Assembly (NCBI GenBank): GCA_951406725.2
Contig: OX597820.1
Coordinates: 119,350,001 to 119,414,000, forward strand
Length of the DNA: 64,000 nucleotides
Reading direction: 5' to 3'
Source of the DNA: Octopus vulgaris
Lineage: Eukaryota
Positions within the stretch are counted from its first letter, which is position 1, and every line of letters begins with the position of its first letter. Of the stretch, positions 15,515 to 51,553 are shown piece after piece. The notes beneath the pieces are model-generated. The model saw nothing but the letters and a program-made list of their open reading frames with translations. It was not told where the DNA came from and did not search any database. The position numbers were made by a program, and so were the translations under genes.

Positions 15515-15515
<1 letters not shown>

Positions 15516-16027
15516 TAGCAGTATCGCCCGGCGTTGCTCGGGTTTGTAAGGGAAATAACTATATAAGCATTTTTAGAGAGTTACTTCCCTTATAGATGCC
15601 AATTCGGGCTTTCTTAGCCATTTCTGTTTTGGTGTCTTCAAGCCATGAAGTCGTTGTTCTAAAAGAACGCTGGTCTCCTTGACAACGCTTTACGACGTTG
15701 ATTTCCTTACACTCCCTTCCCCACAGCTTCACGAGGGAGGGAAGAAGGGGGAGAAGCAAACAGGTGCAGGTGTGACCATGGACGCCAACTCCGCTGCCAT
15801 CGACACACGAAAAATTATGCATTAAAGTGGAATAAAAAATGATGTTAAATTATTTTTAAAATCGTAGACTCATCGTAGACGCGCGCTAATACTCAGACGG
15901 GCTCGATATGAATCACGACTATAAGATACCCGAATTTGGTTAAACTGCACCGCAAAATGTGGGAGTAGTTAGGAATCTAAATCGAAGGGGACAGACACTC
16001 ACACAACTACAGTTTTATATATATAGA
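15515..16027 (-). mobile_element. Non-autonomous Helitron
   Basis: Minus strand starts TCTATATATATAAA and ends with hairpin CCCGAGCAACGCCGGG then CTAG, between A and T. Confidence 0.9.
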
Positions 16028-32753: not shown

Positions 32754-33240
32754 TATATTTTATATATACATGTATGTGTATACATATATAGATATACGTA
32801 TATATATGTATCTATGTATATTGATTTATAATTTATATGTGTATATCATATTGACAGCTAGGTATAATTTCCGAAATTTCATACTAGCTATGTTTTTTTT
32901 TTCTTTCACAAATATATTTTCCCTCCTACCACAAACACGCTGTGACACTCTATATTTGGCATCAGTCTTCCTCTTTGATTGCTTTTTTTCTAACGTCTTA
33001 TATTTATTCTTAACATGAATATGCCGTCTCAAAATTTTATACTTGACAACGTGCATACTCTCTGCCGTTCGTTCTTCCAATCTATATGTATATTTTGTTT
33101 GAATTCTCTTTGTTTGCAGCCATCTTTCGTTTATTTTCGTCTTAAACTTCACTTTTCTTTTCTTTTCAGGGCAAAACTTGTTTTGTTTTTAATCTTTTAA
33201 CAGTTTATTTCTCAAAAGCTCTTCCTCATTTATTACACGA

Positions 33241-33840
33241 TAATAAACAGTGTGTGATTGGTGGTGTGCATATTGATATAGTCTCATTGAACATTCAATC
33301 CGAGATAGAATTACACTTGGAATTCACCAGGATTATATTATATATTACTAGCAGTATCGCCCGGCGTTGCTCGGGTTTGTAAGGGAAATAACTATAAAGC
33401 ATTTTTAGAGAGTTATAGCCAAAAAATAGCAAAAAAATGGAAAAAAATGATGGTAAATTTTTTTTGAGAGTAAAAAAAGGTGGAGCTGCGTCCCCTAGAC
33501 AGTTTGCGGTTTGTGTTTCTGATTCTCGACCCCATGTTGAATTTATCGATTTTTTTCAGAACTGGGGGAACTTTTCAAAATTTTCGCTGCGTTAGTTTTG
33601 AATTATGACATTGGGCTATGTGTGTGTCAAGTTTCATCAGAATCGGTTGAAAGCCGTGGTCAGGGTGAGGGTACAAGCAAACAGACACACAGAAACACGC
33701 ACAGACAAACTGCCGTTTATATATAGAGAGAGATAATAAACAGTGTGTGATTGGTGGTGTGCATATTGATATAGTCTCATTGAACATTCAATCCGAGATA
33801 GAATTACACTTGGAATTCACCAGGATTATATTATATATTA
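33241..33840 (+). repeat. 107-bp perfect direct duplication (33241-33347 = 33734-33840) bracketing a Helitron
   Basis: taataaacagtgtgtg...ggattatattatatatta is identical in both copies. Confidence 0.97.
33348..33733 (-). mobile_element. Non-autonomous Helitron (variant with a different 5' module)
   Basis: TCTCTCTCTATATATAAACGGC start; hairpin and CTAG end. Confidence 0.9.
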
Positions 33841-34235
33841 CTAGCAGTATCGCCCGGTGTTGCTCGGGTTTGTAAGGGAAATAATATATAAGCATTTTTA
33901 GAGAGTTATAACCAAAATATATCAAAAATATGCATTAAAAAATGGAAAAAAACGATGGTATATTTTTTTAAATCGTTGACTCATCGTAGACATTTTTAGA
34001 GAGTTACTTCCCTTATATGATAGCGAAAAAAATGCATTAAAATGGAAAAAAATGATGGTAAATTTGTTTTAAAATCGTAGACTCATCGTAGACGCGCGCT
34101 AATACCCTGAAGGGCTCGTTATGAATCACGACTATAAGATACCCGCTTTTGGTTACACTGCACCGCAAAATGTGGGAGTAGTTAGGAATCTAAATCGTAG
34201 GAGACAGCACACAACTTCACTTTTATATATAAAGA
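33841..34235 (-). mobile_element. Non-autonomous Helitron
   Basis: TCTTTATATATAAAAG start; hairpin and CTAG end; same family as 43733-44117. Confidence 0.92.
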
Positions 34236-34504
34236 TTTTTGTACATATGTTTATGTATCAGCATGATTAATAATGATGTTTAGAAATGTCAAACCTTTAC
34301 ACTTGTAGGTAACGGCTATGTTTTAACGATTCAAAAACTTTTCGTTACTGTGAAATCTCTTGAATTAAACGCAATATAAATGTTTTTAAAATAGAAAATA
34401 GAGTATATGTGTTAATCCTGGGAAATTGTCAATTAAATGGACTGTGTGGAGTCCAGAATTGGCAAATGCTCCAGTCTTAAACGAATCTTACCACAGCTTA
34501 TATT

Positions 34505-34725
34505 TTTTTATTACCCACAAGGGGCTAAACATAGAGGGGACAAATAAGGACAGACAAACGGATTAAGTCGATTACATCGACCCCAGTGCGTAACTGGTAC
34601 TTATTTAATCGACCCCGAAAAGATGAAAAGCAAAGTCGACTTCGGCGGAATTTGAACGCAACGGCAGACGAAATACGGCTACGCATTCCGCCCGGCGTGC
34701 TAACGATTCTGCCAGCTCGCCGCCT
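34505..34725 (-). mobile_element. SINE family C
   Basis: Matches the 25734 and 39440 copies. Confidence 0.92.
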
Positions 34726-35599
34726 TAACGAATCTCACCTCATCTCATCAGGAAGGCATTGGACATATAATGAACAAATTCTGGAAAAATAAATATCCAG
34801 GTGATCTTACATAAATAAGTTTGTGTACTCGGAAACATAAAGTACAAATTAGGCGATAATTTACTGTAATTGTTTTGTATCATCAATCCGAAAACTATAA
34901 TGTATTAGAACATTTTTAGAGTATGTAACAACCCCAAAACAGTAATCACAAATTAATAATAGAGAACGAAAATACCTCACTAGTACAAACATATTGAAAT
35001 CTAGTAAGGACTAAAGAATTGCATACATTTCCACGCCAGCTTTGCGGAAGGCCTTTGATAAAATGAGTAAACTTCCTGTAAGAGAAGGAACGTAGGACAT
35101 TGAAATGAAAGAGATAACCATTTACTATTATGGAATGAAACATCAATTATTAATTAAAATGGAGACTAGTATACATCACTGGTTATTGTAAGAATAAATC
35201 TAAACTAAATTTTAAAATTCGTATAATTACTAAAATGAAATTAAATTTCAATAAAGTTAATTGCTCATATTCAGAAGGGAAGGCTAATTATGGTTGGAAA
35301 GTGAACCGATAGAAATATGGTATCAACAGAAATTCAAAATTTAAAGTGCCACAAAAAAATTAAAAAAAGTAAATTACGAAAAAGAAAACCAAACTAGAAA
35401 TTTCGACATGATTTCTAAAGTAGCAAGGAAATAAGGTGTAAGGAAACAATTAAAATTTTTAGTTGGGCGTTCAAGTGATTGGTTAAAGTCATTATGGAAA
35501 CTATAAAATTTAAAGGAATTCATTGACATTCTTCACAATCATTAAAACTGTTTAATGGTGAAACAGAAACATCTACTCTATTAACTGCACGTAACTAAT

Positions 35600-41199: not shown

Positions 41200-41931
<732 letters not shown>

Positions 41932-43705: not shown

Positions 43706-43732
43706 GGAAAGTTTAGAAAGTATAAAAATAAA

Positions 43733-44117
43733 TCTTTATATATAAAAGTGAAGTTGTGTGTCTGTCTCCTACGATTTAGATTCCTAACTACTCCCACATT
43801 TTGCGGTGCAGTTTAACCAAAACCGGATATCTTATAGTCGTGATTCATATCGAGCCCCTCTGGGTATTAGCGCGCGTCTACGATTTTAAAAATAATTTAC
43901 CATCATTTTTACCATTTTAATGCATTTTTTCGCTATTATATAAGGGAAGTAACTCTCTAAAAATGTTTACGATGAGTCAACTATTTAAAAAAAAATTTAC
44001 CATCACTTTTTTCCATTTTTAATGCATTCTTTTGCTATTTTTGGGCTATACCTCTCTAAAAATGCTCATATAGTTATTTCCCTTACAAACCCGAGCAACG
44101 CCGGGCGATACTGCTAG
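43733..44117 (+). mobile_element. Non-autonomous Helitron
   Basis: A|TC start; CCCGAGCAACGCCGGG hairpin; CTAG|T end. Confidence 0.93.
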
Positions 44118-44536
44118 TATAAAAATAAAGTAATGACAATAATAACAGTTTTACGTAAAGTTCAAAGGTTTTTTGACGTCGTGGTGTATAGCAAGGATTT
44201 CTCATCAAGAGTAGAGTCCACAATGATCCGTATGTAGGGGAGGTGCAGCCGGAGTGTAAGTATTCAAACAAATCCGTAAGTGGTAGATAAAGAGTCCGTT
44301 GGTAAGAAATGACAGGATCAACATGTGCGACCACGTGAGCGTGTGGTATATATATAGGGAGAGTATAACTACATAGGAATATATTTTGGACGTGTACAAG
44401 GTAAAAGAAGGATGTAATTATTGACATTAGATTGTTAACTTATGCGAGCGTGAGTTTGTGTCGGGAGATTAGGACACAGGTCAAGATCATGTTGCATCAT
44501 TTCTCATGTTATCTCTACTATCTGAATACCAATAGA

Positions 44537-45121
44537 TATTCTTTTCTACTCTAGACACAAGGCTCGAAATTTTTGGGACGGGAGCCATTCGATTTGATTG
44601 ACCCCAGTATGCAACTGGTTCTTAATTTATCGACCCCGGAATGATGAAAGGCAAAGTCGACCTCGGCGGAATTTGAACTCAGAACGTAAAGTCAGACGAA
44701 ATACCTATTCCTTTACTACCCACAAGGGGCTAAACACAGAGAGAACAAACAAGGACAGACAGACGGATTAAGTCGATTATATCGACCCCAGTGCGTAACT
44801 GGTACTTATTTAATCGACCCCGAAAGGATGAAAGGCAAAGTCGACCTCGGCGGAATTTGAAAGCAGAACGTAAAGTCAGACGAAATACCTATTTCTTTAC
44901 TACCCACAAGGGGCTAAGCACAGAGAGGACAAACAAGGACAGATAAACGGATTAAGTCGATTATATCGACCCCAGTGCGTAACTGGTACTTATTTAATCG
45001 ACTCCGAAAGGATGAAAGGCAAAGTCGACCTCGGCGGAATTTGAACTCAGAACAGAGCAGCAGACGAAATACCACTAAGCATTTCGCCCAGCGTGCTAAC
45101 GTTTCTGCCAACTCGCCGCCT
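44537..45121 (-). mobile_element. SINE family C head-to-tail trimer (one head, three bodies; 184-bp period)
   Basis: Junction cagacgaaatacctatt at ~44693 and ~44877; the distal unit has a different tail. Confidence 0.93.
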
Positions 45122-46283: not shown

Positions 46284-46648
46284 AGGCGGCGTGCTGGTAG
46301 AAACGTTAGCACGTTACGTTCTGAGTTCAAATCCGCCGAGGTCGACTTTGCCTTTCATCCTTTCGGGGTCGATAAATTAAGTACCAGTTATGCACTGGGG
46401 TCGATATAATCGACTTAATCCCGTTGTCTGTCCTTGTTTGTCCTCTCTGTGTTTAGCCCCTTGTGGGTAGTAAAGAAACAGGTATTTCGTCTGCGTTACG
46501 TTGTGAGTTCAAATTCCGCCGAGGTTGACTTTGCCTTTCATCCTTTCGGGGTCGATAAAATTAAGTACCAGTTACGCACTGGAGTGGAGGTAATCGACTT
46601 AATCCGTTTGTCTGTCCTTGTTTGTCCCCTCTATGTTTAGCCCCTTTT
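46284..46648 (+). mobile_element. SINE family C head-to-tail dimer
   Basis: Tail ...gtaaagaaacaggtatt runs into tcgtctg...gagttcaaattccgccgagg. Confidence 0.92.
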
Positions 46649-51064: not shown

Positions 51065-51553
51065 TCTCTCTCTATATAAAGCTGAAGTTGTCTGTGAATG
51101 GCAGGCTTGGTAGCCTTCAACTAACACTATCTTCTCCGAGACCCTGCGGCGCAAGTTGACCAAAATTGAGAGTATGATAGATGAAGGCTGGCTCTTCATT
51201 TCGTGAAAGAAGAAATTCAAATCGGACCATGTTAAGACCAAAAATTATTTACATCAAAAAGGTGCGTTTTTTCTATGATAATCCCTATATTTTTACGATA
51301 TTTTGACTGCTGTGTCGCCATTTTACGGTGTATTTAAACCAGAAAAATGTTCCCTTAAAGAGAATAACAAGCTACATAATGCAAAGTTTTTAGTTTTCAA
51401 AAATTCCAATTCTAAAGGGTCGAAACAAACCCAAGCAAAGCCGGGTTCACTTAAAGAGAAGAACAAGCTAAATAATGCAAATTTTTTACTTTTCAAAAAT
51501 TCCAATCCTAAAGGGTCGAAACAAACCCGAGCAACGCCGGGCGATACTGCTAG
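51065..51553 (+). mobile_element. Non-autonomous Helitron with duplicated 3' subterminal region
   Basis: A|TCTCTCTCTATATAAAG start; 96-bp-period duplication 51354-51445 / 51450-51541; CTAG|T end. Confidence 0.9.

What the first reader, a model, noticed from the sequence alone, without database searches (positions are those of the whole stretch)
33241..34235. Helitron insertion with a 107-bp target duplication anchored on a neighbouring Helitron's 3' end
Seen (minus strand): HelA-CTAG, flank X (107 bp), HelB-CTAG, then an identical flank X. HelA and HelB differ internally, so this is not a simple tandem duplication. HelB's TC end joins an A|T site at the far end of X. Established: Helitrons normally insert between A and T with no TSD. 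Inference: the 5' end was joined at one site while the 3' end resolved by pairing with the homologous end of HelA and recopying X. This would be a footprint of two-step, homology-assisted Helitron integration that can duplicate or capture flanking DNA.
Basis: partly seen in the sequence, partly recalled or inferred. Interest (0 to 1): 0.8.

Follow-up and report, generated by a model that had tools for sequence, protein, structure and literature searches.

The report
Helitron insertion with 107-base flank duplication
A small rolling-circle transposon (Helitron) sits between two identical 107-base copies of the DNA that follows an older relative, and this likely arose when the newcomer's loose tail paired with the neighbour's matching tail during insertion, although ordinary later recombination would leave the same scar and no second case was found.

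Summary
On the minus strand the order is HelA (34235-33841), X (107 nt), HelB (33733-33348), identical X, then downstream DNA. I laid 4 of 19 holder runs. Three carry one unbranched contig with a single X, the inferred pre-insertion allele. The fourth breaks exactly at the repeat edge and has X at 2.2x flank depth. An assembly artefact is therefore unlikely, though that run may be the source sample and no long read was seen. HelB keeps its own variants up to 18 nt from its end, so the junction lies in the last 17-18 nt shared with HelA. That fits a free 3' end re-pairing during integration (0.48). Later unequal exchange with an empty chromosome gives the same product (0.28). The proposed generalisation failed: the window's other candidate, a 12-nt 'TSD' after AG, has an already tandem empty site. 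Variable and long duplications are published for Helitron2 (up to 443 bp) and Replitron-1. The scan noted a 7-bp Helitron duplication in another genome (unchecked). Real, but a single case.

The parts
33841..34235 (-). HelA: older non-autonomous Helitron (HLE1-type), 395 nt, inserted at A|T with no duplication of its own
   Evidence: its 5' junction lies on single-copy contigs in 3 of 4 runs; relatives at 43733-44117 (89%) and 16027-15515
33853..33868 (-). HelA sub-terminal hairpin (CCCG...CGGG stem), with a G-to-A difference at 33858 relative to the other four window copies
   Evidence: -3.3 kcal/mol; z -1.0, not significant by itself
33841..33857 (-). last 17 nt of HelA, identical to the last 17 nt of HelB; left homology arm of the 126-nt exact repeat
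33734..33840 (-). X1: first copy of the 107-nt flank, with no other match in the window besides X2; ends in the A to which HelB's 5' TC is joined
   Evidence: separate 125-nt contig 33732-33856 at depth 104.5 in run X1
33348..33733 (-). HelB: younger, apparently polymorphic non-autonomous Helitron, 386 nt, different internal module, own 3' variants up to position -18
33360..33375 (-). HelB sub-terminal hairpin, ending 12 nt before the terminus
   Evidence: -4.5 kcal/mol; z -0.7
33241..33347 (-). X2: second, identical copy of the 107-nt flank, directly after HelB's CTAG
32870..33240 (-). downstream flank D, starting TC (2-nt microhomology with HelB's 5' end); continuous with a single X in runs X15, X2, X16
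   Evidence: table 8, records 9, 17, 25

Best explanation
HelB is a non-autonomous Helitron whose 5' end was likely joined in the normal way to the A at the far end of X, while its 3' end likely re-paired with the identical last 17-18 bases of the neighbouring HelA on a strand still lacking the insertion, so that X would have been copied a second time. Shown: the final sequence; a junction that can lie no further in than the last 17 nt (+1 shared T); one run with X doubled and three with X single. Inferred: the ancestral allele is U-HelA-X-D, and a RepHel transposase acting in trans made the 5' joint. Also inferred: the second strand transfer (3'-OH of CTAG to the target T) was missed or undone. 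The free 3' end then annealed to HelA's end 107 nt upstream on the complementary strand or sister chromatid, primed synthesis through X and rejoined D. Helitron transposition is thought to move one strand, so an empty template lies next to the new insertion at that moment. After fixation the preferred repair template, the sister chromatid, would carry HelB and would duplicate X plus HelB instead. The result is a repair by-product with no function of its own.
For: Exact 126-nt repeat = 17 nt of Helitron end + X + TC. HelB differs from HelA at position -18 and again at about -45, so it carries no longer HelA tract. The last block is 16% of matched columns in the shared 3' region, or 28% of perfect blocks of 17 nt or more, so a junction at the very terminus modestly favours a free 3' end over a random crossover. 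Single-X contigs in 3 of 4 runs with HelA's 5' junction present; X doubled in 1 of 4; no contig shown with HelB joined directly to D. Helraiser moves one strand and inserts at A|T (PMC5876387 abstract and Discussion part 1; PMC4778049 passages). Replitron-1, another HUH transposon, makes de novo variable-length duplications that include the target next to its precise left end, which is the same geometry (PMC10288648 section 9 part 1).
Against: A single case. The only other candidate among 4 further window copies (C4, 12 nt after AG) has a tandem empty site in one X16 contig and so is not a second example. Nothing dates the exchange to the integration event. The terminal-junction argument assumes HelA's -18 variant is older than the event, which I could not test. 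The proposed 5' target reads A|TC, whereas all 4 independent 3' flanks in the window start TA (background 34%). Only 4 runs were laid, so the absence of an intermediate allele means little. The papers I read report canonical junctions for intact Helraiser and no such duplications.
Confidence: 0.48

Rival explanations
1. Normal insertion, later unequal exchange. HelB inserted canonically at the A|T between X and D. Later, in a carrier heterozygous for HelB, its 3' end recombined with HelA's 3' end on the empty homologue, giving HelA-X-HelB-X-D.
For: Gives exactly the same sequence. The two ends share about 112 matched columns only 493 nt apart. The empty allele still exists (3 of 4 runs), so heterozygotes are expected. 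Repeat-mediated duplication at rolling-circle elements is described in Drosophila (PMC2211543 passages). An unchecked scan note reads a Helitron-bounded array in this genome the same way (e1-9520962).
Against: The crossover must fall in the last 17-18 nt, 16-28% of the available homology. Such short perfect blocks are poor substrates for homologous recombination (own knowledge). No intermediate allele appeared among the pieces shown for 4 runs (weak).
Confidence: 0.28
2. Duplication first. X was tandemly duplicated behind HelA, and HelB then inserted canonically at the new A|T junction between the two copies.
For: The X|X junction would read A|TA followed by the AT-rich flank that HelA already used, matching the TA start of all 4 independent 3' flanks in the window. 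Copy C4 in this window shows that this sequence of events happens at 12-nt scale.
Against: It needs two coincidences: a duplication breakpoint exactly at HelA's last base with only 1 nt of microhomology, and a later insertion at one of roughly 38 A|T sites in the doubled segment (19 per X) before X diverged. No X-X contig without HelB was shown in 4 runs.
Confidence: 0.1
3. Transposase-made second joint without base pairing. RepHel nicked HelA's own terminus (CTAG|T) on the sister chromatid and joined HelB's 3'-OH there, while the 5' end was joined at the far end of X.
For: Purified Helraiser transposase cuts precisely at its 3' terminus (PMC4778049 passage). This explains the junction exactly at the element end without mismatch-tolerant pairing.
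Against: It needs coordinated cuts on two chromatids, for which I read no precedent. It cannot be told from the best explanation at this locus.
Confidence: 0.09
4. Assembly artefact: two haplotypes (HelA-X-D and X-HelB-D) were joined in tandem.
For: No long read was seen. The one run that shows the doubling (X1) may be the source sample. The X-to-HelB junction contig was not among the pieces shown, and X1 has almost no cover of the upstream flank 34274-34480.
Against: In X1 the downstream contig runs unbroken to 33268, exactly 30 nt into the repeat. It would stop at 33240 if HelB also joined D directly. X forms its own contig ending at 33732, where the window's two copies diverge, at depth 104.5 against 46.8 for D.
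Confidence: 0.04

Closest known systems
Canonical Helitron (HLE1/Helitron1) insertion, e.g. Helraiser (PMC4778049, PMC5876387, PMC11417382; passages and one section read)
   Same: 5' TC, 3' CTAG, short sub-terminal palindrome, no terminal inverted repeats, A before and T after the element, high copy number, non-coding derivatives
   Different: Here the A and the T come from sites 107 nt apart, so the target is duplicated; canonical insertions make no duplication
CRe-1, -2, -3 Helitron2 elements of Chlamydomonas with variable TSDs (Bao and Jurka 2013, PMC3627910; passages read)
   Same: Helitron copies flanked by variable duplications, 7-19 bp and occasionally 44, 50, 93, 242 and 443 bp
   Different: Helitron2 class, Fanzor-carrying, mostly 5'-truncated copies, duplication starts after the TTTT target; no neighbouring homologous end in the passages read. 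HelB is full length, HLE1-type, and its duplication starts at another copy's CTAG
Replitron-1 de novo insertions (Craig 2023, PMC10288648; passages and section 9 part 1 read)
   Same: HUH transposon with one precise end at the target dinucleotide and a variable-length duplication that includes that target; shown to arise at insertion
   Different: Different transposon group, with fuzzy right ends carrying donor flank; cause unknown; no homology anchor described in what I read
Repeat-mediated non-allelic recombination, e.g. at DNAREP1/DINE-1 (PMC2211543; passages read)
   Same: A duplication bounded by related repeat copies in direct orientation
   Different: Independent of the transposition step; junctions are not expected to sit at the element's last base
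Composite or end-bypass Helitron capture between two neighbouring copies (PMC4224331; passages read)
   Same: Two same-orientation copies bracketing host DNA; the present locus would be such a substrate
   Different: That process moves the intervening DNA to a new site; here X is duplicated in place

Membership tests
Helitron, HLE1 type (non-autonomous) | 5' terminus TC | tested here: met
   5 of 5 window copies
Helitron, HLE1 type (non-autonomous) | 3' terminus CTRR | tested here: met
   CTAG in 5 of 5
Helitron, HLE1 type (non-autonomous) | short hairpin 10-15 nt before the 3' end | tested here: inconclusive
   16-nt palindrome with a 4-6 bp stem ending 12 nt before the terminus is the predicted structure, but z is only -0.7 to -1.0
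Helitron, HLE1 type (non-autonomous) | insertion between A and T without duplication (family level) | tested here: met
   A before and T after 5 of 5 copies; no duplication at HelA or C5; C3 lies in a TA microsatellite; C4's empty site is already tandem
Helitron, HLE1 type (non-autonomous) | no terminal inverted repeats | tested here: met
   longest inverted match between first 50 and last 80 nt is 0-8 nt of AT-rich sequence
Helitron, HLE1 type (non-autonomous) | mobilised by a RepHel-encoding autonomous partner | not testable with these tools
   no ORF over 87 aa in any copy; no genome held
Canonical Helitron insertion event (HelB itself) | no target duplication | tested here: not met
   107-nt duplication relative to the single-X allele
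Helitron2/HLE2 with variable TSD (CRe-type) | asymmetric terminal inverted repeats, 5' hairpin, T|T target | tested here: not met
   no inverted repeat, A|T junctions; 5' hairpin not folded
True target-site duplication made at insertion | empty site holds one copy | tested here: met
   single X in 3 of 4 runs; inferred from unbranched contigs, none spans HelA
True target-site duplication made at insertion | duplication and insertion arose in one event | not testable with these tools
   needs de novo insertions or population long reads

The most novel reading that the evidence does not exclude
Canonical (HLE1) Helitron integration in vivo is a two-step, uncoupled reaction. After the 5' joint the 3' end is free long enough to search for homology and prime synthesis. 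In Helitron-dense genomes, insertions landing shortly downstream of a related copy would then regularly duplicate the intervening DNA, which leaves a countable genomic record of the order of end joining and builds substrates for flank capture.
Probability: 0.2. Interest if true: 0.65.

Novelty: new variant of a known kind. Interest (0 to 1): 0.38.

Why it matters
The integration step of Helitrons is less well resolved than circle formation, and 'no target duplication' is used as a defining rule for annotating them. If this scar formed at insertion, it is natural evidence that the 5' end is joined first and that the 3' end can be finished by host repair using homology. With roughly 10^5 related ends in this genome (a rough reading of summed depths, which the tool warns is not a copy number), that idea is testable by counting neighbouring pairs. 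As it stands it is one polymorphic locus whose scar ordinary recombination can also make.

Tried and rejected
Whole-genome scan of family copies: not possible, no genome is held. Scans for the family's 3' end found 0 matches in metagenome contigs, viral contigs and prokaryote genomes. No look-alike stretch in earlier findings.

C4 as a second example. The 12-nt repeat with 2-nt AG homology looked promising: only 66 of 10,274 A|T sites outside simple repeats lie at a tandem junction of 12 nt or more. Rejected because one X16 contig shows the window's upstream 30 nt, including the 12-mer, running straight into the second 12-mer with no Helitron. Paralogous contigs (4 in X16, 4 in X2) have a single 12-mer (24 loose-end rows shown, 180 not shown). 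A duplication followed by precise excision in that lineage is not excluded but is less parsimonious.

Whole HelA+X duplication followed by conversion to HelB: rejected because the 5' termini and interiors differ with no homology to template the left edge. HelB-X arriving as a transduced unit: rejected because X is the local flank of HelA in the single-X runs.

Fold of the X region showed nothing (z 0.17). The hole in X1's cover of 34274-34480 was not used as evidence. The Helraiser transposase structure paper was not held and is not used.

Full report
Observation. Read on the minus strand, the window holds HelA (34235-33841, 395 nt), a 107-nt segment X (33840-33734), HelB (33733-33348, 386 nt), a second X (33347-33241) and downstream DNA D. 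The two X copies are identical. The exact repeat is 126 nt: the last 17 nt of the element end, X, and a TC shared by HelB's start and D. HelA and HelB share a short 5' motif and their 3' 117-130 nt, but not their interiors. Zero differences in 107 nt bound the divergence of the X copies at 2.8% (95%).

What the elements are. Five copies of one 3' end lie in the window, against 0 in 100 shuffles: HelA, HelB, C3 (16027-15515), C4 (43733-44117) and C5 (51065-51553). All 5 begin TC, end CTAG, have A before and T after, lack terminal inverted repeats and have no ORF over 87 aa. A weak 16-nt palindrome ends 12 nt before the terminus (not significant alone). These are the features given for HLE1 Helitrons (PMC11417382 and PMC4778049, passages). 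The autonomous partner could not be sought because no genome is held. The label 'octopus' comes from unchecked scan notes and from my recollection of the repeats, not from a test.

Is it real? Nineteen runs hold part of the stretch, and I laid 4 of them on it. In X15, X2 and X16 (three organism labels), one contig runs unbranched from D through X into the last 16-17 nt of a Helitron end (32870-33363/4; depths 35.9, 38.5, 6.6). Separate single-copy contigs carry HelA's 5' junction (34211/3-34480; depths 43.6, 51.9, 9.5). I infer the allele U-HelA-X-D; no contig spans HelA, so the link is not shown directly. In X1 the D contig stops at 33268, 30 nt into the repeat, and X is its own 125-nt contig (33732-33856, no differences) at depth 104.5 against 46.8. 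This is the pattern expected in a 31-mer graph when X is followed by two different sequences and is present twice per D. If HelB were joined directly to D on a second haplotype, the D contig should stop at 33240 and the depths should be equal. Caveats: X1 may be the assembly's source, about 80% of that run was read, its upstream flank is almost uncovered, the tables were heavily cut (32 pieces shown, 160,506 not), and the junction contig itself was not shown.

Where the junction lies. HelB and HelA differ at -18 and near -45 from the end. Perfect blocks across the shared region are 8, 7, 16, 3, 4, 6, 21, 4, 26 and 17 nt. Among contigs laid at 33396 only about 9% of the depth carries the extra base in X15 (table 4), so HelB's form there is the common one. 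HelB therefore has no HelA-derived tract beyond 17 nt. A random crossover would land in that last block 16-28% of the time, whereas a free 3' end puts the junction there by construction. This is a modest preference, and it assumes HelA's variant is older than the event. That is plausible because HelA is present in three organism labels and differs from C4 at 24 positions, while the X copies do not differ, but it is untested.

Does it generalise? Only 66 of 10,274 A|T sites outside simple repeats lie at such a junction. Laying 4 runs on its right flank showed paralogues of the host repeat with one 12-mer (4 contigs each in X16 and X2). It also showed one X16 contig in which the window's upstream 30 nt run directly into the second 12-mer. 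The empty site is thus already tandem, and C4 reads as a normal A|T insertion. HelA and C5 have no duplication, and C3 lies in a TA microsatellite. So 0 of 4 other copies support the signature. C4 also shows that 'duplication first' is a real route, which I count as a rival for HelB. All 4 independent 3' flanks start TA against a 34% background, while HelB's proposed target reads A|TC.

Mechanism. Every serious model makes the product an exchange between an insertion-bearing strand and an empty strand at the shared terminus, or a two-step coincidence. I favour coupling to integration (0.48). Helitron transposition uses one strand (PMC5876387, abstract and Discussion part 1), so an empty template is next to the insertion only at that time, and the junction is at the terminus. 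Later unequal exchange with an empty homologue gets 0.28, duplication first 0.10, a transposase-made joint at HelA's end 0.09 (Helraiser cuts precisely at its 3' end in vitro, PMC4778049 passage) and artefact 0.04. These weights are judgement, not computed.

Prior knowledge. Variable duplications, up to 443 bp, flank Helitron2 elements in Chlamydomonas (PMC3627910, passages). Replitron-1 makes variable duplications de novo with the same geometry (PMC10288648, passages and section 9 part 1). Composite capture between neighbouring Helitrons (PMC4224331, passages) and recombination at DNAREP1 (PMC2211543, passages) are described. De novo wheat insertions were at AT, but both junctions were recovered for only one (PMC13286980, passages). 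Young Helitron families exist in Octopus vulgaris (PMC13282606, passages). Eight literature searches (listings only, open-access library) showed no report of a long duplication anchored on a neighbouring HLE1 end. I opened no supplements; Additional file 8 of PMC3627910 and Supplementary Fig. 4 of PMC4778049 could hold related cases. The scan's notes include a 7-bp Helitron duplication in another genome and a Helitron-bounded array in this one (unchecked).

Verdict. It is one case, its proposed general signature failed here, and related duplications are known. New variant of a known kind; interest 0.38.

Noticed in passing
window 43721-44129 (+): Copy C4 sits in a dispersed repeat (Penelope-like by a recalled motif, not tested) at the junction of a 12-nt tandem that exists without the Helitron in one X16 contig; it mimics a target duplication and shows C4 is absent from at least one allele or paralogue.
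   Followed up: yes
window 15515-16027, 33348-33733, 33841-34235, 43733-44117, 51065-51553: The family is modular: at least three different interiors and two 5' types (TCTTT.., TCTCTC..) share one 3' terminus, and C3 carries about 230 nt of extra internal sequence.
   Followed up: partly
window 51349-51541 (+): C5 has an internal 96-nt tandem duplication that repeats a decayed copy of the sub-terminal hairpin region.
   Followed up: no
table 5c, joint 34235 to 33349: Contigs join a family 3' end to a HelA-type 5' end with one other letter between (depth 1485 in X1, 245 in X15), suggesting head-to-tail copies elsewhere in the genome.
   Followed up: no
window 33893-34093: HelA carries an internal duplication of about 100 nt (81% identity) in its 3' half.
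   Followed up: no
window 44589-45073 and 46312-46646: 184-nt tandem repeats of a SINE-like sequence (label recalled), a relative of which lies just upstream of HelA at about 34480-34760.
   Followed up: no
window 41200-41876: A 677-nt (ACT)n microsatellite.
   Followed up: no
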